A stretch of DNA of 64,000 nt from a virus. Under the pieces are notes generated by a model. The model searched no databases and was not told where the DNA came from. It was given only the letters and a program-made list of their open reading frames with translations. Each line of letters begins with the position of its first letter. Within the stretch, counting starts at the first letter, position 1. A program made the translations under genes and the position numbers. Of this stretch, positions 6,150-45,400 are shown piece after piece. Location: IMG/VR virus record IMGVR_UViG_3300020470_001965; one strand, written 5' to 3'.

Positions 6150-6151
6150 TT

Positions 6152-21400: not shown

Positions 21401-24400
21401 CCCAGTTGTCTATAACGGCACATTTGTCGTTACAGCACGTCTTGACCAATATAGCTTCTCATATGAGATAGCAACCCCTACTGAGATACTTCCTCAAGGT
21501 AATATCTTATTATCAGTTGACCTTAACAGAGGTAAGTCAACTATTGCCTCAATTAATAAGGTCGTTAGTGAATTTACGACTAATATACAAAATGCGTTTT
21601 TTAATGATAATTATGTTTATGTTGCTGCTAGTGGCTTACCCAACTACAAGATTGGTCCTTTCACTGGGTCGGCACTCATCCCAGGAAACCAAAGAAAACT
21701 CTTAAGGTTCCCTCGGACAGTACAAACTATTTCAGAGAGACAAGACGTTTCACCAGGTACCGCAATCGGTTCTTGGATTAACGGTGTTTCTATATGGTCT
21801 TATAAGTCAAAAGAATATATTCAATATGGTCCATTAACCAATATCAGTGTTGATAACGTTGGTATTGGATATGACGCTGGAGCAAAACCAAACCTAGAAA
21901 TTACAGGAGGTGGTGGAATAAACGCTGCTGCTGAGGTAGTAGTTAATGGTGCATTAGAAAGTTTCGATGTAACTGAAGAAGGTAGTGGTTATACTGAGTC
22001 ACCTTTGGTATCAATCGTTGGTGGCGGTGGTGTAGGTGCTACTGCACAAGCAGTTATTACTGGTGGTAGAGTAACAAGAATTCTAGTTGAGCAACCAGGC
22101 TCAGGTTATACTTCACAACCTAGTGTTTCTATCACAGGTGGTGGAGGTAGTGGTGCAACTGCAAATGCTAATGTCCGTGGTCCTATTTCTGGCATTACCA
22201 TTACTAATGCAGGTACTGGATATACTTCACTTCCAGCTGTTAAGGTTAACTCTGGTGAAGGTGCTTTAGCACAACCAATCGTTATTAACGGTAGAATCGT
22301 ATCTATCGCTATTATTAACTCTGGTGAGTCCTATACGACTGCTCCTAACGTAATCATCAATGGTGATGGATTTGGTGCAATCGCTAAAGCAACTATCGGT
22401 CTCACTGGTGAGGATAAAGGGCGTGTATTGGGTGTAACCATTACTAACAAGGGTATTGGGTATACACAGGGTATGACGACCGTCAGACTCGAATCAGTGG
22501 GTCAATTAGCGACCTTTACACCTACTGTATATCAGTGGAATAGAAACCTACAATATGACCTTGTTGACAATTATGACATTGCAAGAGGTTATGTCTTTAC
22601 AGGATATAACAACCAGTTTGGTGGTGAATATGCTCACCTATCAGACCCTAAAGAATTAAGATATGTTGTTGGTGATAACGTCTTCTTAGACCCAGTTACT
22701 CAACAATTCCAAGAATTAGTAGCTAACTTTAAGCACTCTCCAATTATAGGTTGGGCGTTTGATGGTAACCCAATTTATGGTCCTTATGGATATATCGATC
22801 CTACTGACCAGAATAGTGGTATCAGAAGGATGCGTACATCCTATAAACTTAAATCTAACATCTTGTATGATGAAGCAACTAACCCAAATCCTGCTCGTAT
22901 AGATGGTCCTGACCTTGAAACTTATCCACCAGGACAATTTGTTGCTGACTACTACTATGACTTCCAGTCTGGTGATTTAGACAACTATAATGGACGTTTC
23001 TGTAAGACACCTGAGTACCCAGATGGTACCTATGCTTACTTCATTACAGTTGACTCATCTGATGCTGGTGTCGCTGAATTCCCATACATCATGGGACCAC
23101 AGTTTAACTCATTACCAGATAACTGGAACTTCTCTCAAGTAGCAACACAAGAGAATATCCCATCTGGTGTTGTTAGATATAGAGACCCTTATGTTGAGGT
23201 TGATATTGACGTTGAGCGTCAACCTAACCAAGAGGCAGATGTATTAACTACTGAGATTGAAGGATATCCTTTAATCTTTGAAATCCAAGACTCGAATAAC
23301 GATGGAATAATTGATGCTGATGAGCAGCAAGAAATTCTGGAGATGTCCGAGGAGGCAACGCTACAGATATATGATTACTTTCCTTCTGTATCAGCAGAAT
23401 CAAGAGTTGACATCGAAGTTGAAACAACGACCCAATTTGAAAACGCTCAAATCGACGGATTCGTAGTTGAGAACCCAGGTGAATCTTATCAGGTAAATGA
23501 CACCGTATTCTTCGATAATGAAGGTACTGGTGGTTTTGGTGCATCTGCACTTATTGAATCTGTTAAGGGACAGAAGATAATTGGATACTCTAAGGAGATG
23601 ATTGGTGACCGTCCTTATGGTCACATCACTACTGAAATAGGACATGAGTTACGTCAACAAGACGAAATCATTGTAAATTCTCGTCCTATCATTGATAATA
23701 CCAGTAAGATATACAGAGTTAAAGTTGTTGCTGGTGTTGAAAGAATTAATCTAATTCAAGAAGGTACAGGATATGTTGAAGATATCCCACCAACTTTTGA
23801 AGTTATAACTCCACAGGGTCAGGATGCTCAACTGGAGATTATTCGTGAATTGACAGGTCAAGTTAAGACTGTCAATATTATCAACTCTGGTAATGGATAT
23901 GATGAGGATAATCCTCCTCAAATTAGGGTATCACATCCACAGCAATTCAAGAAGACCCGTTATTGGTTATCTGAATATATGGAGGCTGCTGGAGTAATTG
24001 ATATCCATCATACTGTACAGTCATCTCTGAGATATACTTACATTTGTGGTAGTATCACCGAACCTGATGGTGATATGTCAGGTCTTCTTGCTAAGTTTGA
24101 CGACTTAGGTCAGTTAATCTGGGAAAGGACTCTTATACCTCAGAACGTAGGTCAGAAGAAACTTGAATTCGTCAGGATGCATCTTGATGAGTCTTTAGAA
24201 AACGACATGATATATGTCGCAGGTCAGTATTATGATCCAAACAACTCTACATTTAATCCAGATGTCTGGATGGCACAGTATGAGTCTGGATTCAATAATG
24301 CCAATGCTCCTGACGGTATATTAAAGTGGCAGAAAGCAATTGCAGGTATATCTGGTAGTACAAGAAGAGACTGGGTAACAAGCATCTGCTTAGACCAAGA

Positions 24401-27400
24401 TAAGAATATCTACCTTGGTGGTTATACTGATAGTAATTCACCAGATCCTAATGATATCTGGATTGTCCAGTGTGATATTGATGGTGACCTTGTAGAGAAG
24501 AGAAAGATTGCATCTGCTGATGGATCAGAAGAATTATATCAGTTACAGTATATCTCCCAAGATACCTTCATGTTTGTTGGTATCAATAAAGAGAATAATG
24601 ATGTAATGTATGGTGTATTCTACTATGATGGTGCAAACCTAGAAATTAGTTGGATACGTCAAGTCCCTGTTGCTGGTGGATATGTAAGAAACCCACAATT
24701 CATCATTGATGAATATGATGATGTTGTCTTGATTTGGGACATCTATAATAATGGTGCTGCCAAGTATGACAAGATTCAGATTAACAAGTTCCCATTAGCA
24801 ACTGCTAATACTCAGTGGGAATGGACTAAGACTGTAACTGTTTCTGGTAGTCCAGATAGTGTCAGACATGCTGGTATCAGTGTTGATAACTTTGGTAACT
24901 ATACCCTTGTTACTGATGTCATAGAAAGTCAGAATCAGCGTTATTCTATCGTTCATTACATGAAGTATGATGGTAGTCTAATTGCTGAGACTAAAGTTGA
25001 TGATACTGTCAATATTGGTTTCCAAGCAAAAGACCATGTTGTTGATAACTCTGGTGATTGCATCCTTACTGTTAATAGGCAGCAATCTGACCAAATGGCA
25101 GCATATCGTTTCAACGATGTTCTTGACCTTGACTATGACTTCACGAAGCAGAATTTAGCAACATTTAACATCTATTCTCCTTCAGATGCATCAGTTGATA
25201 CTTCATTCTACAGATTCGGCACTTCAGCACTAAAACTAAGTGCAGTTTGCCCAATTAAGCTTTCTGGTTACAATTTATCCAATCCTGAGTTTAGTTTCCA
25301 AGGTTGGTTCTCTATGGCGACTGCACAACAGTCTGCACAGAATACCAAACCACTATTCTTTGATTTAACTCCCATAACAGGAGATTCCATTCAAGTTGAG
25401 CTTGATGGTGATTCAAATAGTGCAAACTTTGAGAAATGGGTAATGTATGTTAATAGCGTTGAGGTTGCTACTTCTACCTCTGCTACTAACTGGACTACCT
25501 TTGCAGGTGGTGCTTGGTGCCATGTAACCTTCCAGAAGAGAGAAGAGTCACTTGGTTTATACCGTTATGAGGTATTCATCAATGGTAACCAGCAATTAAG
25601 TTATCAGAGCACATCTGATATCAATATGGCAGATATGACCATTGCTGGTAAGTATTCTGCTCCTGTATCTGGCACATCCTTTATTGGTTGGATTGATGAC
25701 CTTGTAGTTGATGATAATGCTCCATATGCTACTGCTGCATACACTTTACCTACAGATGAGCTTCCAGTAACAACATCTAACTCTGATGTTGCTCTAATTA
25801 AGTTTGATAGACTTCATAGTAGAAGAGATTCATATACTGCTACAGGTCTAACAAAATATACAGACTTTGCCTTTACTGATGCTTCAGTACAGACTACATG
25901 GGTTGCCCTCGCTGCTGGTGCTATAACACTTTGGGAAACAGGTCCAGGTGGTCTTCAGATATTGGATATGTCTCAGGCACCTTCTACTTACATTCCTGGT
26001 ACATATACACTAACTGAAAATAATTATGAGTATGCAACCAAGACTTCTACGATTCCATCACCTGCTGGTAAGAAATTATTGATTACTGCTGATGTAATCA
26101 GTAAGTTCTACATGCGTGATGCTCTATATCAGAAGATTGATAATGTAATGGAGTTTACCTTCAGTCAGGATATTAAACTGACTAAGGGTGCTATCTTAGA
26201 ACAATTCAATGACGCTGGTGTAACTCAGGCATATGGTACTATTGTTAAAGTGCCTGAAGGCACACTTCTTAACCCTGGTTACGGCACTAAGTACCAGGTT
26301 GGTAAGATTTTTGGTACTTTCAATAACACTGATCGTTACAGGACTACTGCTAATGATGTCAACCAAATAACTGGCACATACTTTGACACAGAAGAGCCAG
26401 AAGAGCCTTGGGAAGCAGGTAAGGCATATCTAGCAAACGATAAGGTATATTCAGATAAGAAGATTTACCAAGCACAGGGTGCTGGTACATCAGGTAATAT
26501 TGCACCAACTCATACTGCTGGTGTTGTTAGTGATGGTGTAATTAACTGGGCATTCATCGATGATGCTGGTAAGTTTACTATTGACTTAACAGAGCATCCT
26601 CATCCTAGACCTCAATATCTTGGACTTGATATGCCTGAGTGGGTAGATGGTCTTCTATATGTTGAAGGACAGCAAGTTTGGCATAAACTCAATGTATATG
26701 AAGTAGCAGTAGGTGGTGCTGGTGTTGCAGGTACAACTCCTCCTACACATACTACTGGTAGTGCTTCAGATGGTGGTGTAACTTGGGATTATAAGTCAAC
26801 CAGTGAAGCAATTGGAACCTATGCTAGAAACATGGGTTATGACCAAGGTAACAACTATTCAGTCCAGATTGTAGAGATTCATCCTGGATCAACATTCATT
26901 CCAGAAGACGTTGTAAGTCTTAATGCAGATAACATTACTGTTGCTGAAGATGAGAAGAGTGTTGTTGTCTCTGGATTCGCTTCTGTTAAGAAGATTCGTG
27001 TTACTGCAAGATTAGAGAAAGACTTAATAAGGACTGGTGAGGTTAGGACTAAGTATGTCTATGCCACATCAAATAGTGCTCATGGATTTGCAGCAGGTGA
27101 TATTCTATTCACTGAAGGATTCCAAGGTATTCAATTCAATGGTAGTTTCTTTGTAGACCAAGTAATTGGTACTAGAGAGTATACATTTGGTATTAGGGAT
27201 ACTGCTGTAAGTGATCCAACATTCAATAACAATGCGATTAATAATGTCAACATATATGCCAAGCACCCAACATTAGAATTTACTAGAAATCATCAGTATG
27301 TCTTTGACATATCTGATACTTCAAACTTTGGTTATTACCTATCCTTCTCTCAGGATAACCAGTATAAACTGGAATACTCATTTAACAATATCACTAGGTC

Positions 27401-30400
27401 TGGTACTCCTGGAGTTCCTCTTGGTGGTGGTAGCTATCCATTTGTTAAATTCTCAGTATTAGGTGATGTAACTAATATCTCATACTACTTTGACCCATCT
27501 AGGGTTGGTGCTAATTCACCTGTTGGTGATAATTCATTCATTGATGTTATTACTACTCCTTATCAGGGTACATTTAAGATATCAGAAGTCATTGGTGACT
27601 ATGAGTTTAAATTCCCTCTACTTAAGGAACCAGAAAGACAGAATGCTGAGATAATTAATGACGAGTTTGATAATCCATATTCTTACTATTCAACTACTTC
27701 TACAAGAGCAGTTGGACCTATAAACAGCATTAAGTTAGTTGCTGCTGGTGGATTCTATCAGAAACTACCAATCATTAGTGATATAGCATCCTTCAGACAG
27801 ATTGAGAAGTGTGTTATAACCTCTGGAGGTACTGAATATGCTCCAGGTGTCTATTATGACGTTCCTATTGATGGAGATGGTGAAGGTGCTAAATGTACTA
27901 TTACTGTTGAAGTTGATGATGAAGTTGGGTCAGGCACACTGACTGATGTTGCTGTAACCGACCCAGGTAAAGGATATACTATTGCATCTATTGATATTGA
28001 TGCAATACCAGGAATACTTGGTAGTCAGTTAGCAGGATCTGGTGGTACTGTTGATGTTATCATTCCTGATGAAGGTAGCGGTGCTTCTGTCTTCTTAACA
28101 GGTACTAATATTGGTAAGATTAAGAGACTGAAGAATAATGAGTTTGGTTTCGGTTATTCTCACGATTATACCCTGAAACCTGAAATTACCTTCCCAGTTA
28201 ACCTTCAGTTATTCAATACTTCAATACTTTCCGAAATTAAGATAACTGACCCAGGTGCTGGCTATACTTCAACTCCTGCTGTCGTAATCGAAGGTGGTGG
28301 AGGTAGTGGAGCAGAAGCAGAGGCAGTTATTAAGAATAACCGTCTAAACGAGATTATTATTAAAAACCCAGGCGCAGGATACTCATCTGAGCCTACAGTA
28401 ACTTTAAAGTCTGAATTTAACTATGTTGTTAACTTAGACCTTAATTATCTTCAATTTAACTTCCCACATGGTATTACAACTGGTGCTGAAATTACATTCC
28501 GTGCAGATAACGTAGGAAGCACAGTTGGTGAATTACCTAAGCCATCTACCGCAGGTTTGACAAGTTTGGTAGAAGGACAGGTTTATTATGCTATTGCTGG
28601 TGAAGCAGCTGGTTTAGAGTCTGACCAAATCAGATTTGGTTTAACTTTACAATCTGCACAGGCAGGTGATTATATTACCTTCCTGACCCAAGGTAGTGGT
28701 CGTCAGACACTTCTAACTGAGGTATTCGGTGGTAAAGCAACTGCTGTTGTAGAAACCTCCAGATTCCTCGAAGGAGAGCAAGTATTCCAAGGATCTGCGA
28801 TAGAAACACAAACTGCAATTGGTACTGTATCTACAAACACTGGTTGGCAGATTGGACCTAAGATTCTTAAGATTGTTGATTATACTGGTGATTGGATTGC
28901 TGGAGAGAAAGTAACAGGTGTTATTTCTAAAGCATCAGGTCTTATTGATAACCTGAGCATTGCTCGTGGTGTATTAAATATTGGCTCCCTAACGAAGACA
29001 CCAGGCCGATTTATTGATGACGTTGGTAAGCCTTCTGAGATTGTCCAGAAGATACAGGATAGTTTCTTCTATCAGAACTTCTCATACGTTATTCAGTCAC
29101 AGACTCCTATCACAGAGTGGAAGACTCAAGTATTAGAGAATAACCACCCTGCTGGTTTCAATATGTTTGGTCAGTTACAACTGACTGGTGGTAAGGACGT
29201 ATCTGGTCGTAAGATTGGTACTGAGTTTACTAAGCAGGTAAACATCAACAACTACAGTAATGTTAACCAGATAACCTCATTTGGTGCAGCACAACCAATA
29301 TACACTGATTATAACAATACTGAGGTTCTTTTCCGTAAGAAGCGTTTGACATCTTCTGAGGAAATTCTAACTTCTATTGTTAAGAAACTGGATGATATTT
29401 CACCACAGTTTAATGGTATAGACAAGCAATTCCCAATTACTGTTGAGGGTGAGCAAGTTATTGTCCAACAGAATCAGTTGATGATTACACTTAACGGTGT
29501 TATTCAGTCTCCTGGTGAATCTTATCAGGTTGTTGGTCCTAACTTAGTATTCTCTGAACCACCTAAACCAGCATCTAAAGTTAACTATAGAATCTTAGGA
29601 GTTACTCCTACACCTATCTACAGAATTGCACTTTACACTTCTGGTGGTGGCACTAACTTTGGTATCTTCCCAACAATGGGACAGCAAGTCCAAGGTGTAT
29701 TCTCAGATGCTGTTGCAACTGTTATAGATTCTGGATTAGCACATATTGATGTTATTAACGTAACTGGTGGTACTTTCCAACTCAATGAAGAGATTGTAAG
29801 AGGTGAAATCTTCTCTGCTCTTATCGAATCTGTCGAATTGGTTAATACTGAAACTATCTTTGAGTTTGGTGAGACTATTACTAACCTTGAAGGTGATACT
29901 GCTATTATTGAAGAAACTAACGTTGTTGACGGTGTTGTTAATGACCGTTTAGTTGTTTCTAAGACTTCAGGTACTGCTAAGTTTGAAACTGGTATATTTG
30001 ACCTTAAACTCAACGAATACGTCTATTCTGCCTCATCTAAGATTGCAGGACAGATTACATTCATTTCTCCATACATTGACCCAATAACAAGTGAAGTTGT
30101 TGACGAATTAATCATCAACAGAGGGTCTACATTCTTCGGATTGCTATTTGAGCGTCTTGTAAGTTTGGAGAATCCTAATGTCATCCTAGACGACATTTCA
30201 CAATCTTCTATTACTCCTACTGAGCTTTATAACCCAGATGAGCGTATTAACGCTGATTTCCTTGATTTTGAAGAAGTAAGGACTACAGAAATCACTTATA
30301 CCAATCTTGCCAATGGTACGATTGAAGTTGGTGATAGAATCGTTTCTAAGGACGTAGATTACGGAAACCCAGTTTCTACCTTCCACGGTATTGCTGCAAA

Positions 30401-33400
30401 CCGATTCTTAGACGCAAAACGCAACGTTGCTAATAATAAGCAAGAAATCATCGATTTCGCTGAAGGAGCGATTGCGGTACAGTTTGAAGACTATTATTTC
30501 CCATCTGACGTTATTACTAACCCTTGGAGTCGCTTCAAGGACGCATATCGCCTAATTCAGAAGAATAAGGCAATGATTGCTGGTATGGCGTTTGATGACA
30601 TGAAGACGCAGTATCCTAGCTCTTCTATTCCTTCAGATTCCAAATGTAAGCGAGATATCGAATATTTAATCGATGCAATCTCGATTGACATGTATGCAGG
30701 TGGAAACCGCTATACACGTAAGTTCTGTCAGCAATACTTCGATGCAAACGGCACCTTTACATACGTTAACGGCCAGAGTGCAGAAACTAAGTTTGCTTAC
30801 GAAAAAGCAGTTGAAAGGATGAATGCTGCTCTTGCTAACCAGTATTCAGGCACAATTAACGCAGTTAACTCTGGAGACTCCTGGACTGCTTATCAAGACA
30901 CTACAATCACTGCTGACCCTTCTCCTGGCGATGATTACGGCACAAACGGTAGTAACACTTCAAATACCGATGCTGCTAACTGCTCAGACGTACAATCAGC
31001 AATTACGACTTTAGGTAACATTGTAGACACTACTCTTACTAATGGTAACTTAGGTGAGCTTCCTGATGAAACAGAAGGCACATATTCACCTCACCAAGAG
31101 AAGTGCCGTCGTGACCTTGGATATTTCGTAGATGCACTTGCTAACGACTTAGGATCTGGTGGTAACTTCAATATAGTCGAATTTACTAAAAAATTCTTCG
31201 ATGATGCTGGTGTTCCTTTAACTAACGGTATTGTTGGTGAAGAAGCAGAAGCAGTCCATGCTTTCACTCAAGCAGGTGAATTATCGAAACGTGCCATCAA
31301 TAACTTGATGTATTGGAAGGATCTAAGTGGTATTGGATATAACCTTAATGATCCTACTACTTACACTGGTGGTACTGCTCCTGCTCATCGTTACGATGCA
31401 AACTACGATACAGGTAATAATCAGGATATTGCTAACTGTGCAAACGTTAAGACCTATATTGACACTTTAAGTGGTATTGCAACAACTGCAATGACTGCTG
31501 GTAACTTAACCAACATTAATGCACTTGCTAGCATCACAGACGGCACATTCCAAGATGGAGAGACCATCAGGACGATTAAACTCGCATATAAGGATAAATC
31601 CACTGGATTGTTTGCTACAGGCGATTCTATCAAGGGTGTAACTTCTGGAGCGACTTGTGAGTCAATTGGTGCAAATAGCGGTCTTAAGTGGATATTTACG
31701 GGTGCTATAACTGGTACATTCCAAGCAAACGAATATATCACTAATTCCACTTTATCTGTCCAAGGTGCTGTTACACAGTCAGTAATCGTTAAAAAGGCAG
31801 AATTAAGTGGATCTAAGTCAATTTACATTCCTGCTGCTGGATATCTGAATGCTGCTGATAGTTACGACTTTAATTTCGGAACTGGCGACTTTACAGTTTC
31901 TGGTTGGTTTAGACCTGCTGTAAACGTTGGCACACAACATTTATTTGATTTCCGTCGTTTAAGTGCTGCTGAAGGACTTAATATCAGATTTGACGGTCAA
32001 CAACTTAAAGTATACAATGGCACAACTTTAGGTATTAGTAGTGGTAACGTATTCGCTAATACTGGTGAATGGTATCATATTGAGGTTGTTAGGTCTTCTA
32101 ACGTTACTCAGGCATATGTAAACGGTGCTCAGGTTGGTAGTAACTGGACTGACAATAATGACTATGCTTATGCTCCTTGTGCAGTAGGTACATCATTCCA
32201 GCAATTACAAGGTTGGACAGGTCATATTGATAACGTATATGTTAAGAAGGGAGTAGCAGACCATACTTCTGGATTCACTCCATCTAACATCTTTGACCCA
32301 GATGCTGTTGATATGGTATTGGGATTAGATGGTGAAGCACCATTTGTTGTCTCTACTACTTCTGTATATGCTAAGTATACTGGTCAGAATACATCATCTG
32401 CTACTGCTAAGAAAGTTGATTATGATGAAAGAGACATCATCATTGAGGATGTTGACCTAGGTCGTCAGGAATACAGAAACTGTGCTGATATTCTTGACCT
32501 TAATGCTGCATGGATTGCTGAAGAAGCAGTCGGTATGATGAAGGCTACGTTTAGTGACTTCACTATTCGTGGTGACGATCCTGCTTCAAACTTCTACGGT
32601 GGTACCAATACATGTATAAGAGATACTAAGGACTATATCCTTGGTGCTATGATTAAAGACCTTCATGAAGGTGGAAACTATCATACTCTCTATACTGCTA
32701 GGACTTATCTAACTGCTTCAGGTAAATTAGACCATATTGAAGAAGAGGTACTACAGGCACTGTATACATGGGATAAGGTAATTGACCTTTGCAACCTAGT
32801 CCTTACAACTACAAGCACAGACCTTTCTGGTACATATACAACTAAATTAAGAATACCTAATAACTTCTCTACTCCTGCATCACAGGCAGTACAGGATTAT
32901 ATCACTCAATTAGGCACAGACCTACTTGAAGTTGTTGCTCCTAAGGATGTTAGGTTTAGGGATTCTGGCGTATTAATCTGGAAGAATAGAGATTATATTG
33001 CAGAAGAGACTGCTGAGTATATTCAGAACAAGTATCAGCAGACAATCAATTCTACAACATATGACTTCCTTGAGATGCCTGGATATGGACAACCATATTG
33101 TGAGAGGGACATCAAGGATCATATACTACCTGCTGTAATTAATGACCTTGCTACAGGTGGTACATATCAGACACAAGCTGTCATAGACAATTATCTTGAT
33201 AGCAACCAAAACATCCTTCATGTTGAGCATGAAATTAATCCAATGCTCGATGCTATTGATTTTGCAAGGATGCTTTGCTTAAAGGCAATTAACAACTTAC
33301 TTCTATCACCAGGTGAAGTTGCTGCTGAGTTGGGTGCTCCTGCTCAAATGCAAGATGAGTATTACACACCTCTATACACAACTAATACTGCATATAGAGA

Positions 33401-36400
33401 TGATACAATCGTAATTGACCCTGAAGGATATCCTCAGACAACAAGGACTTCTAATGACAGATACCTTGATGCTGTTGAAATGATTCAGACTAACAAGCAC
33501 GTTATTGCTAAGGAAGTTGTTGCAATAATGAATGACTTGTCTAAGTTTGAAGGACTCAATATTCCTGGTGGAGCAATCAACTGTGAAGATGACGTTATTG
33601 ACATGATTGACTCAATCAGTCATGATATACAGTATGATTGTAACGAGAAGACATACGATGCAGCAGCATTGTATATTGAGCCTGAAGATAACTCACTGAA
33701 GCATATCGAAGGTGAGTGGGAAGCATCTATCACTGTTGTGAAGATACTTCGTGATGTCTGTGCTTTGACTATGCGTAATGCATTTGGTAGGGACTACCAT
33801 GATGGTGGTGAACCTGATATCAAGCCAGTTCAGACTTATGAGCAGAATCCAAGAGAGACAGTCTATAAATTATGTGGAGATGCTATTGATGGAAACATAC
33901 GCTATATTGCGGAGCAAGCGGTTGCAGCAGGAACTAAGCAATTCCCTTCTCTTAACATCCCTGGCGGACCTATTAACTGCGTCCATGACGTTACTGATAT
34001 CCTTAGGTCATTAGTATTCAACTTGAAGTATGGTGGTAACAACATGCTTCAGTATGGCACAGAATACTATGTTAACTCTGGTGGTAACCTAATTCACGTA
34101 ACCTCACAGTCTACAGAGTCTGTCTGGATAATGAATAAGGCAAAAGAGTTTGCTATTCGTGCTATGAAGGACCAGGTTATTACTAATGATGCTGGTCATA
34201 GCGTTGGACAGAGATTCTATGATGCAGTTCCTAAGCCTACTAACCAACTATTAATATCTGAGCCTGCTGGTACTGGACAAGGTGCTGGTGGTGGCGGTGG
34301 TATAACAACCACTATGAATAATATTGTTACTAGAGAATTTGACTTTGGTGACACATTAATATCAACTACTGACAGCTCTGTTGGTTTGGTACCTGATGAG
34401 GATGCTGTATTCCGTTGCATCACCACTCTTCCAAGTGGCACACCTACAGATTGTACCCTCTTTGAATGTGGTAGTGCTTCATCTGGTGTTTGGTTTGGTA
34501 TTAGAGACAATGGTACATATCTGAGACTACGTGCAGGTACTGCAACTCAGTCTTATGCTGGCGGTGCTTCATATACTTCTGATACTGGTCTTGCAATGCT
34601 TGACTTACAAATCAGTAGTCTATCAACATACTTTGATGGTGGAGACCATGAATTAGTTTGGGAAATCAGAGTTGGTGGCGATATTGGTACTGGTCCAGGA
34701 CGTGTTAAGTTGTGGATTGATGGTGTGCCAGTAGGTGAAGCGGTTACTCCTGGTCTTAACAGTGTTACTGGTTTGACTGGTGGTCAAGGAATGTTTGCTG
34801 ATGCCAACTACGGTGGATTCGGAATGTCATCAACAACATGGCCTTCAGGTGAGCCTGGTGCTAAGAATGTATTTACTGTTAACGTTGGTGCTACACCTAA
34901 GATTGCATATGATGTTTCTCATGCTGATTATGATGCCAGCACTGGTGACTTAGTACTTAATGTTGGACATCATGACTTTACTAATAATACTAAGATTCAA
35001 CTGAAGACTAACTCTTTAATCTTCACTTGTACTCAAGACGACAACGCAACTAATCATTCTTATCCTAGGTCTGGTGACCCCGCAGGTAATACTGCTGTAG
35101 ATATTATTGATGTTGGAGTCGTACCTTTCACTGCAACTGACGCTGCTTACGACCCCAACAGTGGCATCATGACAGTGACAGTCCCAAGTCACAACTTCGC
35201 TGATTCAACAACCCATACAGCGTCTGATGCCACTTACGATCCTAACACAGGGATACTCGAAGTGACCGTCAATAATCACGGTTTCAAGACAGGGGAGCAG
35301 GTTAAGATTCATCAAGGGTCATTAATATTCACTTGCTCACAAGATAATCATGCTTCTAAGCATGGATATCCAAGGACAAAGGATCCTGCTGGAGACCAGT
35401 GGTTAGCAATTGAAGAAGTAACCATGCACACCTTTAAGGTGCAGGTTGGTCAAACTGCTAAGAGAGAATATGATGTATCTGATGCAACATATGACCAAGC
35501 AACTGGTGAATTAAAATTAGAAGTTGGTAATCATAACTTCGTTGAAGCAACACAACATATAGCAACTGATGCTGAGTTTACCGCTAAGACTGGTATGCTC
35601 AAGATTCATTGCTCTCAGCATGGATTCGGTAATGGTGACCAAATCCTGATTCAGGATGGATCCATGACATTCACTTGCTCAATGGATAACCATTACACCA
35701 ATCACGTTTATCCAAGGTCTACTGACCCTGCTAGTGAGAAGTGGTTATCTGTAGAGAATGCTACTGAAGATTCATTTGAAGTTAATATAGGTGAATCTCC
35801 TATCAAGCACTTCACACCAACAGGTGCTTCTTATAACTCTGCTACTGGTGAGATGACCCTTACTATAGGGACACATACCTTATCAGTTGGCACACATATC
35901 AAGATTGCAGGTTACTCTCTAAACTTCACATGTGCAATGGACAACTATAAGTCCATCCATGCATATCCTAGAGTAACTGACCCATATCATAATGAGCCAA
36001 TGGCAATTACTGCGGTAACTGCTGATACTATCACAGTTAACGTTGGTAGCACCCCTCAGGTCAATCATACACCTACCGATGGTGATTACGATCCATTAAC
36101 AGGTGACATGGTATTACATATTGGCAACCATGACTTACGTCCTATTACAAGGTATCCAGTATCTAATGCGTCTTACAATCCATTGACAGGATTGATGACC
36201 ATCACATCTGTTGCACATAATATTGGCACAGGTGACATGGTTAAGATTAGACCTAACTCATTAACCTTTACATGTGCTATGGATGGTAATTCCACCGAGC
36301 ACTCATATCCAAGACTTACTGACCCTGTTGCTGGACAATGGTTACCAGTAACTGGTTCTACTGCTGACACATTTGATGTCAATGTCGGCATGTCTCCTAG

Positions 36401-39400
36401 CGTTAACTACACACCATCTGCTGTCTCCTTTACACCTACTACAGGTGATATGGTGATGACACTTGGTAATAACTGGTTACGTGCTCCAGAGACACATAAG
36501 CATACCAACGCTGCATATGATCCTACTACAGGTATCATGACATTAACTGTTGCGGATCATGGATTCGCTAATGGTGACAGAGTTTGGATTGCTTCTAATT
36601 CTATTAATTTCAATTGCACCTTAGACGGTGGATTCAGTGAGCACCGTTATCCTCGTGCTTCTGACCCTGCTGGTAACAGATTCCTTACTGTTACTAACAT
36701 TACTAAGGATACATTTGATGTCCAAGTCCTAGATGTAGTACCTTCTACTAACCAGTCTGCTCATACATTCATTCCTGAGCAAGGTATTACTCCTACTGGT
36801 GCTACTTTTGATACTGCAACTGGTATCATGACTATCACTTCTGGCACTCATCATCTACAAGATGGTGACTACATCAGAATTGCTGATGGTGCTGTAACCT
36901 TCCGTTGTGATGAAGATGGACAAGCATCTGACCATGCATATCCAAGAGCAACAGACCCTGTAAGTGGTAAGTGGATACAGGTATTCAATACAACTAATAC
37001 TAACTTCAGTTTCCAAGTATTAGAAAACGTCCCTTGCACAAATACAACTACTCACGTATTCCAGTCTGCTGTATCTAACAGTATTGAGAGAGGAAATATT
37101 ATCAAGGGTGGTGAAGCACTTAAGGTTCAAACCAACTCTCTCACATTTACATGTGCTCAAGATGACCACGCTACCAACCACACATATCCTAGGTCTACTG
37201 GATCTAACTTCGGTGGTAACAGTGGTGCTGACCCAGTATATGATAAGGCAATCCCAATTAAGCATGTCGGGACTACTAAGCATACAGTAACTACAGGTGC
37301 TTATAATCCTTCTACAGGTGTTATGACACTAACCGTGCCTAATCACGGATTCATAACTCATACACCAATGACAGCTACTGACGGTAGTTACAACCCTGCT
37401 ACAAGTGTTATGACACTTAAGGTTGGTAACCACGGTCTAGTTGAAGGTGACAGAATTATGATTACTGATGGTGGTGTTACATTCAGATGTGATAAGGATG
37501 ATAACTCTACTACTCATACATACCCAAGATCAACCGACCCTGTATCAGGTAAGTGGTTAACTGTTTCTAACGTAACCTCTGATTACTTTGATGTAACTAC
37601 TGGTCGTTTCTTCGGTCATAATCAAATTACTAGCGATGCAGTCCACACCTTCAGCTCAGGAGCACAAGGTGGTATTTGGAAGGCAAATGACAAGATTAAG
37701 ATGGACCCTGAGTCTATCACCTTTAGATGTGCTAAAGACAACAACAATACCAATCATGCGTATCCTAGAAAGTCTGACCCATCTCATCATGAGTGGTTAC
37801 CTATTTCTAATGCTAATCAGAATACGTTTGATGTCCAAGTCGGACGTTCACAAGACACTTCAGTCCACCAGTTTGTATCCGCAAAACCAAGTGGAGTTGA
37901 AAGACCTGACGGCACCATAACACTTCATGTTGGTAAGTCTTCTAATACTACTGAGCATACATTTGTAAGTGCTGCTACTGGATGTATCCAAACAGGTGGT
38001 AACCATATTCATTCATTCGTTGCTAATAATGCTCTAACACCTACCAATGCTGGTTACAACCCCAACACAGGTATCATGACCTTGACTATTAATGGTCACG
38101 GTTTGATTGATGGTGACAGGGTTATGTTGAATGACGATGCAATCGTATTCCGTTGTGATGAAGACGCACAAGCATCAGACCATGCTTACCCACGTAATAC
38201 CGACCCATCTAGCGGTCAGTGGTTACCTATTCAAAATGTAACTGCAAATACATTTGATATTAAAGTCCTATTCGACGTACCTTCTACTAACGTAACAACT
38301 CACGTATTCCAGTCTGCTGCATCGAATAGTGTTAATGTATTTGCTGTATGGAGAGAAGGAGATTCAATCAGAATTGACGATGATTCACTCATCTTCACTT
38401 GTGGTATGGATGGACATTCTACTAACCACACATATCCTAGAGGATCTGGTTCTAACTACTCTGGTGATATAGCAACCACAGCTGGTGCTGACCCATACTT
38501 CCAGAATTCCATTAAGATTCAAGATGTAACCCGTGTTAGAAAGACAGCAACTAACGTTGCTTATACTCCAGACACAGGTGTAATGACCATCACTCTTGGT
38601 GCATCTCACGGTGTGTCTAATGGAGACAGAATTAAGATTGCTCCTTACTCAATCTCATTGAAATGTGAGAAGGACAACTATGCTACTGAGCACAAATATC
38701 CACGTCCTACAGACCCAATGTTTGACCAGTGGTTGACAGTTTCTAATGCTCAAGCAACTACTATAGATGTCAACGTAGGTCTATCTGGTGCTAACGATAG
38801 ATTTGCACATACCTTCCACTCTGCTGATGCTAACGGTATTCATCATCAGTCTGGTAAGATTCGTGTCCACGTTGGTAAATCTTCCAACACTTCTGAGCAC
38901 AGATTCGTTGGTGTTTCTGGATTACAACCTGTAATTGCTGGTGGTAACTACGCTCACGCATTTGTAAGTGCTAACTCTGGTGCAGTCCACACAGGTGGTG
39001 ATTACATTCATAAGTTTGTTTCTGCTACTCATCTAACTCCAACTAACGCAACATATAACCCAACAACAGGTATCATGCAGTTGACTGCTGCTGACCACGG
39101 TTTAGTTGTTGGTAGTTACATCAAGATGGATGAAGGTGCTGTAACCTTTACCTGCACACAAGATGGTGATGCATCTTATCACTCATATCCAAGGTCTTCC
39201 GACCCAATGAATGATACATGGATGAAGGTACTTGCTGCAACTGCTACTACATTTGATGTCCAAGTATTAAACAACACTCCATCTACAAATACTACTGCTC
39301 ATACATTTAAGTCTGCTGGTAGAAACAGTGTTACTCTTGCTTCCTTTACTAAAGCAAATGATACTGTATCTCTAAGACCTGATGGATTAGTATTCACCTG

Positions 39401-42400
39401 CACTAAGGATGGTAATGCTACTGAGCATTCATATCCTAGAGTAACTGACCCTGCATATAACGAGTCACTTAAGATTCTTGATTCTGGCATCTCACAACAT
39501 ACCCCAACAGGTGCAACATATACACCTTCCACTGGTGTATTACAACTTACTGTTAACAACCATAACTTTGCTAGTGGTGACAAGATAATGATTGAGGATG
39601 ATTCACTCCTCTTCACTTGCACAATGGATGATAACTCTACTGCTAAGGCATATCCAAGAGGATCTGACCCAATCAGTCGTCAGTGGAGAGATGTTACTAT
39701 TGTTAATAGCAATACAATTAGTATTAATGTTGGTACTACTGCTAATACCACTAAGAATGTCTTAGATGCTTCTTATACTGCTACCACTGGTAAATTAGAG
39801 CTTAACATTGGTAACCATGACCTTAAGTCTGGTCAAGCAATTAAGTTGGCAGACAACTCCTTGACATTCACATGTGACATGGACAACCATGGTTCTCAGC
39901 ATACCTATCCTAGAACCACAATTAATCAGTGGACAGCAACTGGTGCAACATATAATGGTAATAGTGGTTATATGACCCTGACGGTTAACAACCACGGACT
40001 AGATGACGGATCACTCATCAAGATAGATGATAATGCTTTAACCTTCCGTTGTGACTTTGATGGTAATTCCTCAGACCATGACTATCCACGTGCTTCTGAC
40101 CCAATTAGCGGTAACTGGACTAAGATTAAGAATACAACAACCAATACATTTGATGTATTCGTTGGTAAGTCACCATTCGTAGGTTGGGATCCACAAGACG
40201 TTGATTACAACCCAACTACAGGTGTAATGAAGGTTGTTATTGGTACTCACAACCTTGCAGTTGGTGAGAAGATTTGGCTCGCTGAAGAATCATTCACCTT
40301 CACATGTGCTCAAGATAATCATCAGACTGACCATAAGTATCCTCGCTCTTCTGACCCATCATTTAACAGTCCTGTAGAAATAACTGCTGTAGAAGACGGG
40401 TCAATATCATTCAACGTATTATCTACTACACCTTCTACTAATACCACAGCACATACATTTAAGAAGTCCAAGGGTATGACACCTACTGCGATTTCTTACA
40501 GTCCTGCTTCTGGAGCAATGACTGTTACTGTTGCTAATCATGGCATGGTAAATGGTGAAGTTATTAAGATTGAAGACTTTGGATTAACATTTACATGTGC
40601 TAAAGATAGTCATGCTACTGAGCACGTATATCCACGTCCTACCGACCCATTCAGCGGTAGATGGATGGAGATTTCTAGTGTAACAAATGATACATTTGTA
40701 GTTAATGTATTAGATGATGCACCTTCTTCCAATACTTCTTCTCATACATTTGTTTCTGCTAAGGCAGGTTGCATCATTAGAGGTTCTATCAGGACTGGTG
40801 GTGCATACACTCACTCCTTCCAGAGTTGTGCTGCTAACGGAATCAAGCAAAAGCGTGACAGAGTATATGACCACTCAATCACTATTGAGTCTGTTGGTGA
40901 TGCTACCTATACAGCGACTGCTGCTGCATATACTGCTTCAACTGGTTTATTAACACTAACAGTTGCTAACAACCCATTCTCCAATGGAGACCATATCAAA
41001 CTAGCAGATAATTCTATTATCTTCACTTGTGATATGGATGGCAATGCTACTCAGCACTCATATCCACGTCCTTCCGACCCTGCATCAGGTAAGTATCTTG
41101 AGGTATCTAATGTATCTGGTAACGACTTTGATGTTAATGTCGGAGCAACTGCTGCTGCACCATACAATGTAAGTGATGCAACTTATGATCCTACTACAGG
41201 TGAAATGACACTGGACATTGGTCCTCACCCATTCGATAGTGCTTCTCAGCATACAGTAGAGAATGCAACATATAATCCTTTAACTGGTTATATGACTATC
41301 CATCTCAACGATCATGGATTCGAGATTGGTGATAGAGTCCACTTCGCTCAGGAGTCTATATCATTCAGTTGTCAGATGGACAACTACATTACTAACAAGG
41401 CATATCCTCGTGCTACCGACCCAATGGCAGAAAGGTGGCAGGAAGTTGAGAATGTCACACAACATACATTTGATGTATATGTTGGATCAGATCCTCTCGA
41501 AACTTTTAATGTAACTGCTGCAACATATAATCCCACAAGTGGAGATTTGGTACTAACCATCGGTGACCACCATCTTACAGTGGGCGAAAGTATAAAACTG
41601 AAAACAGAATCATTAGTATTCACTTGTGACTTTAACGGTGATGGCAATACCACTCAGAAAGCATATCCTCGTGCAACAGGATCATCTGCTGTAGGTAACA
41701 ATGGTGCTGACTATGTTTACAATACTGCAATCACTATTACTGCTGTTACTGCTAACACAATTACTCTGAATGTTAACGGTGGTCAAGGTGCTATTACAGA
41801 CACTACTGCTCACAACTTCGTCTTAACTGCTGCCTCTACTGGTGCAGTAATTGCTGGTGGATATCATCCACATACATTCTCAAGTGCTGTTGCTAACGGT
41901 CTTTACAGGTCACATCAATCTGTATACCTAGTTGCTGATGGATTATCATTCAAGTGTAATCAGGACAACTTCTCTACTACTCACACATATCCACGTGCTG
42001 CTGGTGTTACTACTTCCACTGTAACTGCTGCAACTTACGATCCTACTTCTGGACACATGAGGTTGACAGTCACTGGACATGGTTATAACAATAATGACTG
42101 GATTAAGATTGCTGATAACTCACTGACATTCAGATGTCAGCAAGATAGTCTAGGTAGTGACCACACATATCCTCGTAGTACTGACCCAGTTAGCGGCAAG
42201 TGGATTCAAATCCGTAACGTAACTACTAACACATTTGATGTCCAAGTCTTGAAGGATGTCCCTTCAACTAACGTTACTGACCATGTATTCCAGAGTGCTT
42301 CTGCTAACGGTATTACACATAAGAAGGATCCATATTATGACACTGCACTTCCTATCAAGTCAGTAACTGGATCTACAATTACTATTAATATTGGTAAATC

Positions 42401-45400
42401 TTCTAACACCTCAGTCCACCAGTGGGCAGGTGGAGTATCAGTTGGTGCTGTAACAGGTGGTGGTCAATATACACACACCTTTGTATCTGCTGTTGCAGAT
42501 GGTATTCATTGGAAGGATTCTACTATCGTTATTGACGTTGGTGAATCACAAGCACACAGCTGGACACCTACTGCTGTATCCTACGATCCTTCTAACGGTG
42601 AAATGACCGTTACGGTTCCTGGTCACAATATACAGTCAGGTGACAAGTTAAGACTAGCAAGTAAAGGTTTCACCTTCCAGTGTAATCAGGATAGTTATGG
42701 ATCAGATCACAAGTATCCACGTCCTAATGGTTACAGTGGTGCAACTGCTGATGACCCTGCATACGATGATAGAGTCACAGTAGCAAGTGTTAGTGGAGAT
42801 GACTTCGTAGTTAATGTTGGCACATCTTCTAATACAACTGCTCACCAATGGGTAAACACAGTATCTAACGAGACTTATACCCCAACCAGTGCATCTTATA
42901 ATCCTGAAACAGGTAAGATGAATATCAGCATTCCTGCTGATACTAAGGATGTTAGCACTGCTACCTACAACCCAACTACAGGTGTCTTGGAAATGACCAT
43001 TGGGTCACATACCTTGACTACAAGCGATAAGATTAAACTGAAGCCTAATTCACTGTCATTTACATGTGACTATCTGGGTGATGGTAATGCAACTGTTAAG
43101 ACATATCCACGTGCAAATGGTGCGGAGACTTCTACTGGTGCTGACTATGCATACGACACAGTATTAGACATTACTGCTGTTAGTGGTACCACTATTACAG
43201 TTAATGTTAACGGTGGTCAAGGTGCTGTTACAGATACCTCTGCTCACACATGGTCTGGTGGCACATCAACTGGTGCTGTAATCGTAGCAAATGACTTTGC
43301 TAACGGTGACTTCATCAAGATTGTTGATGGCACATTCGTATTCACATGTGATAAAGATAATAACTCAACCAACCATGCATATCCAAGGTCTACTGACCCC
43401 TCTAGTGGTAGATGGTTAGAGATATCAAACTGGAATGGTGACACATTTGATGTCCAAGTCCTAGATGTAGTACCTTCTACAAACACCACTGCTCATACAT
43501 TCGTATCCATTAGTGGATCCAATGGTGTTAGTAGGTCTATGATTACCTCAGGTGGTAACTATAGTCATACTTTCGTATCTGCTTCTGCTGGTGCAGTTAA
43601 GGTTGGTGGCGACTTCACTCACACATTTGACTCTGCTAAGACTGGTTGTCTACACAGACAGAATGGTTGGATTACTCTTGACGTTAAGGCTGCTGCCTCT
43701 GCTGACCAGTATGCACATACATTTGTCCGTGCTGTCGCAGGTGCTTTAATCGGTGGTGGTAATTATAGTCATACATTTGTATCTGCTGCTACTAACGGTA
43801 TTGAGAAAGCAAACGAATACATCTATATCGATGAAGGCTCTATCCATATGACATGTGATAGAGATGATAATACTTCAATACATGCATATCCTAGAGCAAC
43901 TGACTTTGCTGGAGATGAGTGGTTAGCAGTACATAATACTACTTCCACAACATTTGATGTAATGATTGGTAAGTCCTCTGACAAGACCAAGCATCATTTT
44001 GTTGCTGCTGATTTACATGGAATTAAGAAACAAGACGGCACTATTACTGTTAACGTTGGAATAGGTGGTGTTGGAAATAGATTCGCTCACACCTTCGTAA
44101 GTGCTATCTCTGGTGCAGTCATCAAGGGTGGTGACTACAGACACACATGGGTAAGTGGTGCTGCAAATGCTATCACTGTTGTTGATAGTGGATTACAACT
44201 AACACCTACAGATGGTTTCTACGACCCTGTATCTGGTGACCTAACACTTACTGTTGCTGGTCATAGTCTGACTCAGAATGATAATATTACTCTCGCTCCT
44301 GGATCTGTTGTATTCACTTGCACAAGTGACCAGAATGCAACTAACCATGCATATCCTAGAGCAACTGACTTTGCTGACGGTAGAATATTACCTGTCACTG
44401 CTGTCAACTCCTGGGCATACCCAGTATCTACGAAGCTTTCATACTATAGAAGTCGTCTTGTAGACTACAACTATACAGGTACAGAAGCTGGTAACGTTGA
44501 GGGTGAGATAGCATCTCTAATTCAATTCGTAACTGATGGTATCCAGACTCCTGGTATCGTCAATGGTAGGTCATATACAATGCCAATCTGTTGGCCCGTT
44601 AAGTATACCGATGATGTTGTTGTAAGAGACCTATCTGTTACTTACGATACCGCAGGTGGTGGACAAGATGCTAACGGCACATGGAATCAGACATGTATGG
44701 AAAGTGCATCTGCACTCAGCACATTGACTGATATCTTTATCAATACTATTCAGGAAGCAGCAGAGAATCAAGTTAATTACTTAACTGCTAGTGTAACTAA
44801 GACATTCCCATTCAATAGTAATACTAACTATCAAGCAGGTACTTGCTACGATTGCACATCAACTGCTGATACTCTCTTTGATATCATGTTGCATGCCCTT
44901 GGTGGTGGTGCTACTAACAGTAAGAGAGTTTCCAACATATTACTGTTTAACACACAGTCTATATGTGGTAGGTCATTTGATGAGACTGTTGCAACGTATC
45001 CAGGAACCAACCTCACTATTGACTTTGCTCAGGATGTCCTCAAGGCAGTCCGTTATGACTTGGTAACTGGTGGTAATGCTGGTGCATTCAAATTATCTCA
45101 GACATGGTTTGACGGTGAAGGTAACTTCATTGCATTCCCAACCGTAACTAGGTCTCACATCCTATTCTGTCTAACCAGAATTAGAGAGTATATTAAGAGT
45201 GTCATGTATCTCCATACTTCTGATGCTGTATGGTTGAACTATGATGTATACATCCCAACAGATAGATTCGAGTGGAATCAGGAAGCTGTTGAATTCATGG
45301 TTGACTCTTCACTCAACCCAATTGAGTATGCATTAGAAAGGTCTACATTCGCTACTGAAGCAAGAGTAACCTTCATCCCATCTACTGATGTTGTTAACCT

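What the first reader, a model, noticed from the sequence alone, without database searches (positions are those of the whole stretch)
34870..44420. Russian-doll nesting of 30 'YPR' modules suggests a branched, tree-like protein
Seen: the roughly 100 aa module reads A.Y.P.TG...LT...H....G..I.I...S..FTC..D.....H.YPR..DP...W..I......F.V.V......HTFVSA. The copies are not simply tandem. Module 17 stops at HTYPR (about 39906) and resumes at KRDRVYD (about 40851) after three inserted modules. Module 24 stops at HTYPR (about 41988) and resumes at KKDPYYD (about 42321) after one. Other modules are split after the first His or before the last strand, so runs of orphan closing strands (GG.Y.HTFVSA) pile up at about 38940-39030 and 43550-43800, like closing brackets. 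Inference: domains were inserted recursively into at least three permissive loops, giving a dendritic rather than linear fibre.
Basis: partly seen in the sequence, partly recalled or inferred. Interest (0 to 1): 0.75.

Follow-up and report, generated by a model that had tools for sequence, protein, structure and literature searches.

The report
Russian-doll nested barrel domains, cyanophage baseplate
A 9,914-residue baseplate protein of a marine cyanobacterial virus carries 30 copies of one small beta-barrel domain, and 28 of them sit inside loops of other copies, up to seven levels deep, which makes it one of the deepest self-nested protein architectures seen so far.

Summary
One ORF (18438-48182, 9,914 aa) sits just after gp6 in a T4-like cyanophage baseplate module. 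It holds exactly 30 'YPR' modules (aa 5496-8657). Element HMMs find 30 N-terminal hairpins and 30 cores. Seven hairpins are orphaned and seven cores lack a hairpin. A stack parser reads all tokens with no violation: 30 modules, 9 of them discontinuous, three insertion loops, depth 7. Modules 2-29 all lie inside root module 1. Random orderings of the 23 pieces parse correctly 3 times in 2,000,000. Nine differently nested homologue architectures are also balanced, and other lineages are purely tandem. AlphaFold2 models of a 2-module unit (pLDDT 90.7, pTM 0.84) and a 5-module nested unit (pLDDT 87.2, pTM 0.83) are confident and rigid. Single compact PDB barrels align across model residues 1 to 511-537, so the split pieces are predicted to form one barrel. 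The fold matches the inserted beta-barrel of phage endosialidases and the E1 FCCH domain. The closest precedent is the six-level recursive SI3 insertion of cyanobacterial RNA polymerase. This case has a different fold, more copies and greater depth, and it is in a virion protein. Function (probably multivalent glycan binding) is inferred only.

The parts
18438..48182 (+). Giant ORF (9,914 aa) in the gp7 position of the baseplate gene cluster
   Evidence: ORF list. gp6 domains lie directly upstream, with gp9/10-like and gp8 downstream. PHROG 'baseplate wedge / virion structural protein' hits. tblastn hits lie under genes annotated gp7 or structural protein in 298 cyanophage records.
34923..44408 (+). 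Array of 30 YPR beta-barrel modules (aa 5496-8657)
   Evidence: 30 YPR; 30 A + 30 B element-HMM hits; full parse.
34923..35117 (+). Root module m1, first piece (A, B, C1; aa 5496-5560)
44034..44105 (+). Root module m1, closing strand C2 + D (aa 8533-8556). Modules 2-29 lie between the two m1 pieces.
   Evidence: HMM C2 and D hits; stack parse.
35130..35198 (+). m29 hairpin (aa 5565-5587). Its core lies 2,870 residues downstream.
   Evidence: Orphan A hit; pairing by stack parse.
43812..44009 (+). m29 core without hairpin (B, C1, C2, D; aa 8459-8524)
   Evidence: Module HMM positions 19-86 only.
35475..35540 (+). m15 piece 1 (hairpin, aa 5680-5701)
39357..39479 (+). m15 piece 2 (B + C1, aa 6974-7014)
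43662..43733 (+). m15 piece 3 (C2 + D, aa 8409-8432). The C2 token was placed by eye.
36069..36137 (+). m12 piece 1 (hairpin, aa 5878-5900)
38358..38534 (+). m12 piece 2 (B + long-loop C1, aa 6641-6699)
38850..38915 (+). m12 piece 3 (C2 + D, aa 6805-6826). The C2 token was placed by eye.
36402..38036 (+). Self-contained five-module nested unit (aa 5989-6533). m8 is in three pieces; it hosts m6 and m7 in one loop and m10 in another, and m10 hosts m9. This unit was modelled.
   Evidence: AF2 pLDDT 87.2, pTM 0.83. Compact PDB barrels align over model range 1..511-537, and endosialidase barrels over 28..238. The unit is collinear in 46 homologous loci at 35-81% identity.
37278..37892 (+). Two-module unit (aa 6281-6485): m10 hairpin, complete m9, m10 core. 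This unit was modelled.
   Evidence: AF2 pLDDT 90.7, pTM 0.84. The inner module is model residues 28-137, one compact barrel.
39765..39917 (+). m17 piece 1 (A + B, ends at HTYPR)
   Evidence: Module HMM positions 4-55 only.
40854..40898 (+). m17 piece 2 (C1, RDRVYDHSITIESVG), after m18-m20. Placed by eye.
42513..42563 (+). m17 piece 3 (C2 + D), after m21-m25. Placed by eye.
41169..41237 (+). m24 piece 1 (hairpin)
41919..41999 (+). m24 piece 2 (core B, ends at HTYPR)
   Evidence: Module HMM positions 22-54 only.
42327..42434 (+). m24 piece 3 (C1, C2, D), after m25
   Evidence: Module HMM positions 54-85 only.
42879..42935 (+). m28 hairpin
43302..43511 (+). m28 core (B to D), after m27
   Evidence: Module HMM positions 18-97 only.
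44202..44408 (+). m30, top-level module. It ends after C1 and no closing strand was found.
   Evidence: left open.
38934..39026 (+). Extra GG.Y.H.FVSA strands after closure of m12
   Evidence: D-HMM hits. Their role is unexplained.
43542..43787 (+). Run of GG.Y.H.FVSA strands interleaved with the closing strand of m15

Best explanation
The segment is a self-similar, recursively nested array of 30 homologous ~85-residue six-stranded beta-barrel domains within a giant gp7-position baseplate protein of a T4-like cyanophage. Each barrel reads hairpin A, core B (ending F-T-C..D..H.YPR), strand C1 (DP..W..I), strand C2 (F.V.V), and an optional return strand D (H.F.SA). Complete copies of the barrel, or whole sub-trees of copies, sit inside three surface loops of other copies: A|B, after YPR, and C1|C2. 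Nine barrels are therefore made from two or three pieces, up to 2,900 residues apart. Modules 2-29 hang inside one root barrel, and the nesting reaches seven levels. Shown: the sequence grammar, its balance, and its conservation. Predicted: the pieces refold into single barrels, and entry and exit strands pair as a neck, giving a compact and rigid branched cluster rather than beads on a string. Inferred: with six gp7 copies per baseplate (by analogy with T4), about 180 lectin-like barrels would form a multivalent bush. This bush probably binds host surface glycans. Because only the root barrel lies in the main-chain path, the bush would not carry load during baseplate rearrangement.
For: There are exactly 30 YPR motifs, all in this region. 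The module HMM gives partial hits that are complementary: hairpin only, core only, C-half only. Element HMMs find 30 A and 30 B; 7 hairpins are orphaned, 7 cores lack a hairpin, and the A/B string is a Dyck word. A four-token stack parse gives 30 modules, 0 violations and depth 7. Random order of the pieces is valid in 3 of 2,000,000 trials. Eleven of the 15 by-eye tokens are recovered by relaxed HMMs, with 0-1 hits elsewhere in the 9,914 aa. Of the complete homologue architectures with at least one nest, 9 distinct ones are balanced Dyck words, and the 5 exceptions trace to a sub-threshold hairpin or a degenerate core. The window differs from its relative L001 by one balanced 'AB AABB' insert. 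A five-module nested unit is collinear across lineages at 35-42% identity. AF2 gives the two-module unit pLDDT 90.7 and pTM 0.84 with orphan hairpin pLDDT ~93, and the five-module unit pLDDT 87.2 and pTM 0.83 with orphan pieces at ~84-93. Compact single domains align over model residues 1..532, 1..511 and 1..537, the span of split m8: SelB 186-269 (Z 4.8, rmsd 2.8, 66 aa), the HFTV1 tail chain (Z 4.3) and P22 coat 226-349 (Z 4.0). Four endosialidase barrels align 83-84 of 85 residues over 28..238, meaning the entry and exit strands of the m6+m7 insert belong to one unit. All three insertion points fall in loops of the modelled barrel.
Against: No experimental structure exists. Model coordinates could not be inspected, so contacts are inferred from aligned ranges, pLDDT and pTM. 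The rows supporting the split barrel have modest Z (4.0-4.8). The alignments given to AF2 were built from units chosen as collinear. Four tokens are still placed by eye. A residue-coupling test for matching each orphan hairpin to its predicted core was inconclusive. About ten extra GG.Y.H.FVSA strands are not explained by the grammar, and m30 does not close. Function rests only on fold resemblance.
Confidence: 0.8

Rival explanations
1. This is a plain tandem array of variable repeats. Orphan hairpins are extra decorations or decayed modules. Hairpin-less cores complete their barrel with the preceding H.F.SA strand plus the following strand. Nothing reassociates over long distances.
For: Every hairpin-less core is directly preceded by an H.F.SA..N.I strand pair. 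Some lineages have purely tandem arrays. The coupling test did not single out the predicted partners.
Against: This reading does not predict equal numbers of orphan hairpins and hairpin-less cores (7 = 7 here, and equal in the balanced homologue architectures). It does not predict the non-crossing order, nor the orphan C1 and C2 pieces. In the models the H.F.SA strand and the next strand belong to the inner domain (range 28-137 / 319-429), not to the following core. The orphan hairpins are confidently placed.
Confidence: 0.1
2. The pieces complement each other between subunits. In an oligomer, orphan hairpins of one chain complete hairpin-less cores of another chain (domain swapping), rather than within one chain.
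For: Many phage fibre proteins are trimers with intertwined chains (general knowledge). Equal counts of halves would also hold under this model.
Against: Swapping does not require the strictly nested, non-crossing order that is observed. Monomer models are already confident and globally rigid, with pTM 0.83-0.84. T4 gp7 is a single copy per wedge (established knowledge of T4 baseplate structure).
Confidence: 0.07
3. The apparent nesting is an artefact of how repeats were parsed: short, low-information tokens were assigned to fit a bracket model.
For: C1 and C2 are 10-15 residues long. Fifteen of 119 tokens were first placed by eye.
Against: The A and B tokens alone (HMM E <= 0.01) already give 30 = 30 and a Dyck word, here and in homologues. 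Relaxed C1 and C2 HMMs hit almost only inside the array and recover 11 of the 15 by-eye tokens. The strands predicted by AF2 coincide with the tokens.
Confidence: 0.03

Closest known systems
SI3 insertion of cyanobacterial RNA polymerase beta' (recursive insertion of sandwich-barrel hybrid motifs)
   Same: Homologous small beta domains are inserted into one another recursively, with bifurcating hosts. Six-level nesting of eight domains is reported for Prochlorococcus rpoC2 (PMC13114784; structures in PMC10895346 and PMC10120043).
   Different: The fold differs (endosialidase-barrel / FCCH-like; no RNA polymerase chain among the listed structural matches). There are 30 copies rather than 8-9, depth 7, and three insertion loops. 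It sits in a virion baseplate protein, and the architecture varies widely between related phages, from purely tandem to deeply nested.
Beta-barrel domain of phage endosialidases (endoNF of K1F, phi92; Pfam PF12195)
   Same: This is the best structural match: Z 6.6-7.7, rmsd 2.0-2.3 A over 76-81 residues, 18-20% identity. It is also a domain that occurs as an insert within another domain, with adjacent termini. From memory, it is inserted in the endoNF propeller and carries a sialic-acid site.
   Different: The Pfam match is far below threshold (10.6 bits against 35). The endosialidase has a single copy and it does not host further inserts. The F-T-C..D..H.YPR..DP signature is specific to the cyanophage family.
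FCCH domain of ubiquitin-activating E1 enzymes (Pfam PF16190)
   Same: Equally good structural match (Z 7.0-7.5, rmsd ~2.8-3.0 A, 73-78 residues). From memory, it is also an inserted domain in its host.
   Different: Identity is 6-15% and the Pfam score is below threshold (14.9 bits against 29.5). The biology is unrelated, so this is probably a shared fold only.
Tandem Ig-like, PKD or BIG domain arrays of phage fibres and bacterial adhesins
   Same: Many copies of one small beta domain in a giant surface protein. Some cyanophage relatives of this protein do have purely tandem YPR arrays, with 8 to 24 copies.
   Different: Those are beads on a string with contiguous domains. Here 28 of 30 copies lie inside other copies and 9 are discontinuous.
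T4 gp7 baseplate wedge protein
   Same: The gene sits directly after gp6 in a baseplate cluster. There are PHROG baseplate-wedge hits and a weak Baseplate_wedge Pfam hit near the N-terminus.
   Different: The protein is about ten times longer. The Pfam hit is just below its cut-off (24.7 bits against 27). As far as I know, T4 gp7 has no YPR modules.

Membership tests
Recursive homotypic domain insertion (SI3-type architecture) | A domain's sequence is interrupted by one or more complete copies of the same domain family | tested here: met
   Complementary partial HMM hits flank complete modules. The count is 30 A = 30 B, with 7 orphan hairpins and 7 hairpin-less cores. Stack parse gives 0 violations.
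Recursive homotypic domain insertion (SI3-type architecture) | The interrupted pieces fold back into one domain | tested here: met
   Met in prediction only. AF2 pTM is 0.83-0.84, with confident orphan pieces. Compact PDB barrels align across model residues 1..511-537. There is no experimental structure and coordinates were not inspectable.
Recursive homotypic domain insertion (SI3-type architecture) | Inserted domains themselves host inserts (multi-level nesting) | tested here: met
   Depth 7. Hosts m8, m12, m15, m17 and m24 carry inserts in two different loops.
Recursive homotypic domain insertion (SI3-type architecture) | Sandwich-barrel hybrid motif fold, in RNA polymerase | tested here: inconclusive
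   No RNA polymerase chain appears among the 50 rows listed in any of the four structure comparisons. A family that is not listed is not excluded. The gene context is clearly a phage baseplate, not RNA polymerase.
Endosialidase beta-barrel domain (PF12195) | Sequence match above Pfam's gathering score | tested here: not met
   10.6 bits against a cut-off of 35, E 0.59.
Endosialidase beta-barrel domain (PF12195) | Same fold over the whole domain | tested here: met
   4hiz, 1v0e, 3ju4, 3gvk and 3gvj give Z 6.6-7.7, rmsd 2.0-2.3 A, 76-81 of ~85 residues and 18-20% identity. Z below 8 can reflect only a common arrangement.
Endosialidase beta-barrel domain (PF12195) | Sialic-acid / glycan binding site | not testable with these tools
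   No coordinates or ligand modelling were available.
E1 FCCH domain (PF16190) | Sequence match above Pfam's gathering score | tested here: not met
   14.9 bits against a cut-off of 29.5, E 0.028. The structural match is Z 7.0-7.5.
T4 gp7-type baseplate wedge protein | Position after gp6 in the baseplate gene cluster | tested here: met
   Gp6-like domains are in the ORF at 16354-18432, directly upstream. gp9/10-like and gp8 lie downstream.
T4 gp7-type baseplate wedge protein | Baseplate_wedge domain (PF23786) above threshold | tested here: not met
   24.7 bits against a cut-off of 27, at aa 690-734. PHROG baseplate-wedge families do match strongly.

The most novel reading that the evidence does not exclude
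The 3,090-residue stretch from aa 5496 to 8581 is physically one giant discontinuous domain tree: 29 homologous barrels of which 28 are nested in a single root barrel, seven levels deep and branching at five hosts. This would be the deepest and largest homotypic recursive domain insertion known. It would be evolving rapidly between related cyanophages by gain and loss of whole balanced sub-trees, and it would build a rigid dendritic, multivalent glycan-binding bush on the baseplate that is mechanically shielded from main-chain tension.
Probability: 0.55. Interest if true: 0.85.

Novelty: new variant of a known kind. Interest (0 to 1): 0.72.

Why it matters
Domain insertion is common, but multi-level self-insertion is rare. 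The survey I read names six-level nesting in cyanobacterial RNA polymerase as its example of deep nesting (PMC13114784).

- **A second, larger natural example.** This case has a different fold and a different setting, a virion protein. Dozens of natural variants range from purely tandem to seven-level nested.
- **A comparative system.** The variants could show how nested architectures arise, which loops tolerate inserts, and how such chains fold when the halves of a domain are made thousands of residues apart.
- **Likely outside automated surveys.** As far as I know, giant proteins of this size are not in the AlphaFold database, so surveys built on it would miss this class.
- **Phage biology.** It suggests that the enormous baseplate proteins of marine cyanophages are compact branched clusters of lectin-like barrels rather than long fibres. 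That bears on host recognition by some of the most abundant viruses in the ocean.

Tried and rejected
- **Complex prediction.** I intended to fold the m29 hairpin (aa 5560-5593) with its core 2,870 residues downstream (aa 8434-8528) as two chains, using alignments A4 and A5.
- **'atlas' structure library.** Not available.
- **Foldseek against the PDB.** Nothing at E <= 0.001 for the two-module model.
- **Profile search of PDB sequences.** Only chance-level hits, E >= 0.035.
- **Megablast of 5 kb against GenBank phages.** No match.
- **Pattern scan of 185,579 prokaryote genomes with the two-module unit.** No relative found. This scan finds only close relatives.
- **Residue-coupling partner test.** Pair log-odds were learned from 1,013 contiguous modules and used to match each orphan hairpin to its bracket partner. 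The true partner ranked top in 33% of cases against 28% expected, which is inconclusive.
- **Model coordinates.** They are not exposed to the script box, so no contact map could be computed.
- **T4 fibre His-box comparison.** I considered whether the H.F.SA strands are T4 fibre-type His-box repeats of a trimeric shaft. This was not tested. Those that lie inside the two modelled units (aa 6281-6485 and 5989-6533) are placed as the last barrel strand or a return strand, while the extra strand at the end of the second model was left disordered (pLDDT < 50) and the other extra strands lie outside both models.


Full report
**What is there.** The flagged stretch lies inside one uninterrupted ORF, 18438-48182 on the + strand, 9,914 aa. 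The ORF directly upstream carries gp6 domains, and gp9/10-like and gp8 genes follow downstream. PHROG profiles for 'baseplate wedge subunit' and 'virion structural protein' match strongly. A 1,000-aa piece finds 298 phage records by tblastn: 288 from Synechococcus/Prochlorococcus phages or cyanophages and 10 named only 'Marine virus'. The matches lie under genes annotated gp7, structural protein or tail fibre. There is no near-identical DNA in GenBank phages. So this is the gp7-position baseplate protein of an uncultured T4-like cyanophage.

**Checking the observation.** 'YPR' occurs exactly 30 times, all between aa 5542 and 8639.

A module HMM built from 17 contiguous copies returns full-length hits. 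It also returns partial hits of three complementary kinds:
- hairpin only (profile 1-26),
- core without hairpin (profile ~20-90),
- C-terminal half only (profile 54-85, at aa 7962-7993, right after module 25).

**The grammar.** I split the module into five elements:
- A: the Y.P.TG.L.L hairpin ending in His.
- B: ending F-T-C..D..H.YPR.
- C1: DP..W..I.
- C2: F.V.V.
- D: H.F.SA, optional.

HMMs rebuilt from 471 distinct contiguous modules of this protein and 74 related loci find 30 A and 30 B. Seven A hairpins are orphaned, each followed directly by another A. Seven B cores lack a hairpin. Read as brackets, the A/B string is balanced and never goes negative.

A stack parser over all four ordered tokens accepts the whole array with zero violations. 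It yields 30 modules, 21 contiguous and 9 in two or three pieces, with maximum depth 7. Child modules sit in three sites: A|B (15), after YPR (4) and C1|C2 (9). Modules 2-29 all lie between the two pieces of module 1 (aa 5496-5560 and 8533-8556). Module 29's hairpin and core are 2,870 residues apart. Only module 30 fails to close.

Fifteen of the short C1 and C2 tokens were first placed by eye. Relaxed HMMs recover 11 of them, while hitting 0 (C1) or 1 (C2) places in the other ~6,800 residues. Random orderings of the 23 pieces of the split modules parse validly 3 times in 2,000,000.

**Homologues.** Two scans of IMG/VR fetched 154 loci. Among the arrays that are complete in the first 74 loci, 9 distinct architectures with at least one nest are balanced and non-crossing. 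Their module counts are 28, 27, 26, 21, 20, 19, 19, 18, 18, 17, 12 and 12 including the window's relatives, with depth up to 5. Other lineages are purely tandem, with 8, 11, 12, 16 or 24 copies.

The five unbalanced architectures have simple explanations. In three, the core orthologous to m29 has a partner hairpin that falls below threshold. In the other two, a hairpin is followed by a degenerate core lacking YPR.

The window differs from its 75-81% relative L001 by exactly one balanced insert, 'AB AABB'. The five-module nested unit 'AABABBAABB' is collinear in 46 loci, down to 35% identity. Indels therefore respect the bracket structure.

**Structure predictions.** The two-module unit aa 6281-6485 consists of hairpin, complete module, then hairpin-less core. 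With 38 collinear units as the alignment, it folds with mean pLDDT 90.7 and pTM 0.84, and the orphan hairpin scores ~93.

The five-module unit aa 5989-6533 folds with pLDDT 87.2 and pTM 0.83, and its orphan pieces score ~84-93. A pTM this high for five domains implies one rigid assembly rather than beads on a string.

- The contiguous inner modules align as single compact barrels (model 28-137 and 319-429).
- Compact single domains align across model residues 1..532, 1..511 and 1..537. These are SelB residues 186-269 (Z 4.8, rmsd 2.8 A, 66 residues), a Haloferax virus tail chain (Z 4.3) and the P22 coat region 226-349 (Z 4.0). That is the span expected if the three pieces of module 8 form one barrel.
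- Four endosialidase barrels align 83-84 of their 85 residues over 28..238. This ties the strand entering the m6+m7 insert to the strand leaving it.

All three insertion points fall in loops between predicted strands. These are predictions and the Z scores are modest, but they agree with the grammar.

**Fold and likely role.** The module has no Pfam family above threshold, and no PDB relative by sequence or by Foldseek. An exhaustive structural comparison gives two best matches. One is the beta-barrel domain of phage endosialidases (phi92, K1F; Z up to 7.7, rmsd 2.0 A, 77 residues, 20% identity). The other is the FCCH domain of E1 enzymes (Z ~7.3-7.5). FNR and riboflavin-synthase-type barrels follow. 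The two top folds also appear as the only sub-threshold Pfam hits.

Both are, to my knowledge, domains that occur as inserts within other domains, and the endosialidase barrel binds sialic acid. I therefore infer, without a test, that the array is a multivalent glycan-binding bush at the baseplate periphery. Because only the root barrel lies in the main-chain path, the bush would not be under tension when the baseplate rearranges.

The family has 724 representatives at 50% identity among 1.84 billion proteins. None was found in a limited scan of prokaryote genomes.

**Comparison with what is known.** Nested insertion is known. A 2026 survey names the cyanobacterial RNA polymerase SI3 region, with eight domains in a six-level recursive insertion, as its example of deep nesting (PMC13114784). 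This case follows the same principle but differs in several ways. The fold is different, there are 30 copies, the depth is 7, three loops host inserts, the protein is a virion component, and related phages show a wide spread of architectures. I file it as a new variant of a known kind.

**Open points.**
- About ten extra GG.Y.H.FVSA strands follow closures and are not explained by the grammar. One of them is disordered in the model, which suggests its partner lies outside the modelled unit.
- Module 30 lacks a closing strand.
- A coupling test of partner identity was inconclusive.
- The two-chain complementation test could not be run.
- How inserts arise is unknown. Simple tandem duplication cannot create nesting, so non-tandem copying into loops followed by selection for foldable products is implied.

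Noticed in passing
window 38934-39026, 43542-43787 and eight other places in 37998-44180: There are about ten extra 'GG.Y.H.FVSA' strands that belong to no module in the grammar. They always follow the closure of a split module or the last module of an insert. The one inside the five-module model is disordered (pLDDT < 50), as if its partner lies outside that unit.
   Followed up: partly
window 44202-44408 and downstream to 48182: Module 30 ends after strand C1 and no closing strand was found. Either it is a truncated barrel, or part of the 1,250-residue C-terminal region is itself inserted in its last loop.
   Followed up: partly
every module, e.g. window 37278-37892: Several residues are invariant or nearly invariant per module in 38 aligned units: the His at the hairpin end, the Cys of F-T-C, an Asp three residues later, the His before YPR, Tyr-Pro-Arg, Asp-Pro, and the His of H.F.SA. 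This set could be a metal site, as another first-stage note suggested. The geometry could not be checked.
   Followed up: partly
window 34866-34898 (aa 5477-5487): A C2-like strand (NVFTVNVGATP) lies just before module 1, after a region (aa ~5300-5470) that looks concanavalin/LamG-like by eye. Pfam reports Laminin_G_3 with 2 stretches, the best at aa 4476-4602.
   Followed up: no
window about 47850-48179 (aa ~9805-9914): The extreme C-terminus reads like an Ig-like domain (D.G.Y.V....G......A.L.V pattern). This is by eye only.
   Followed up: no
window 22620-23054 (aa 1395-1539 of the giant) and ORF 48191-49780: A YHYH domain (PF14240) occurs both inside the giant protein and in the next gene downstream.
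   Followed up: no
L044, L047, L051 (24 modules); L038, L050 etc. (16); L036 (12); L058 (8): Some cyanophage lineages carry the same module in strictly tandem arrays with no nesting. Nested and linear forms of one family therefore coexist in nature.
   Followed up: partly
L067-L070, near aa 123-190 of the L067 open frame: A hairpin is followed by a degenerate core (…LRF[AS]CPTKD…) without YPR that appears to host the whole six-module array. This would be a host module that has lost the family signature.
   Followed up: no
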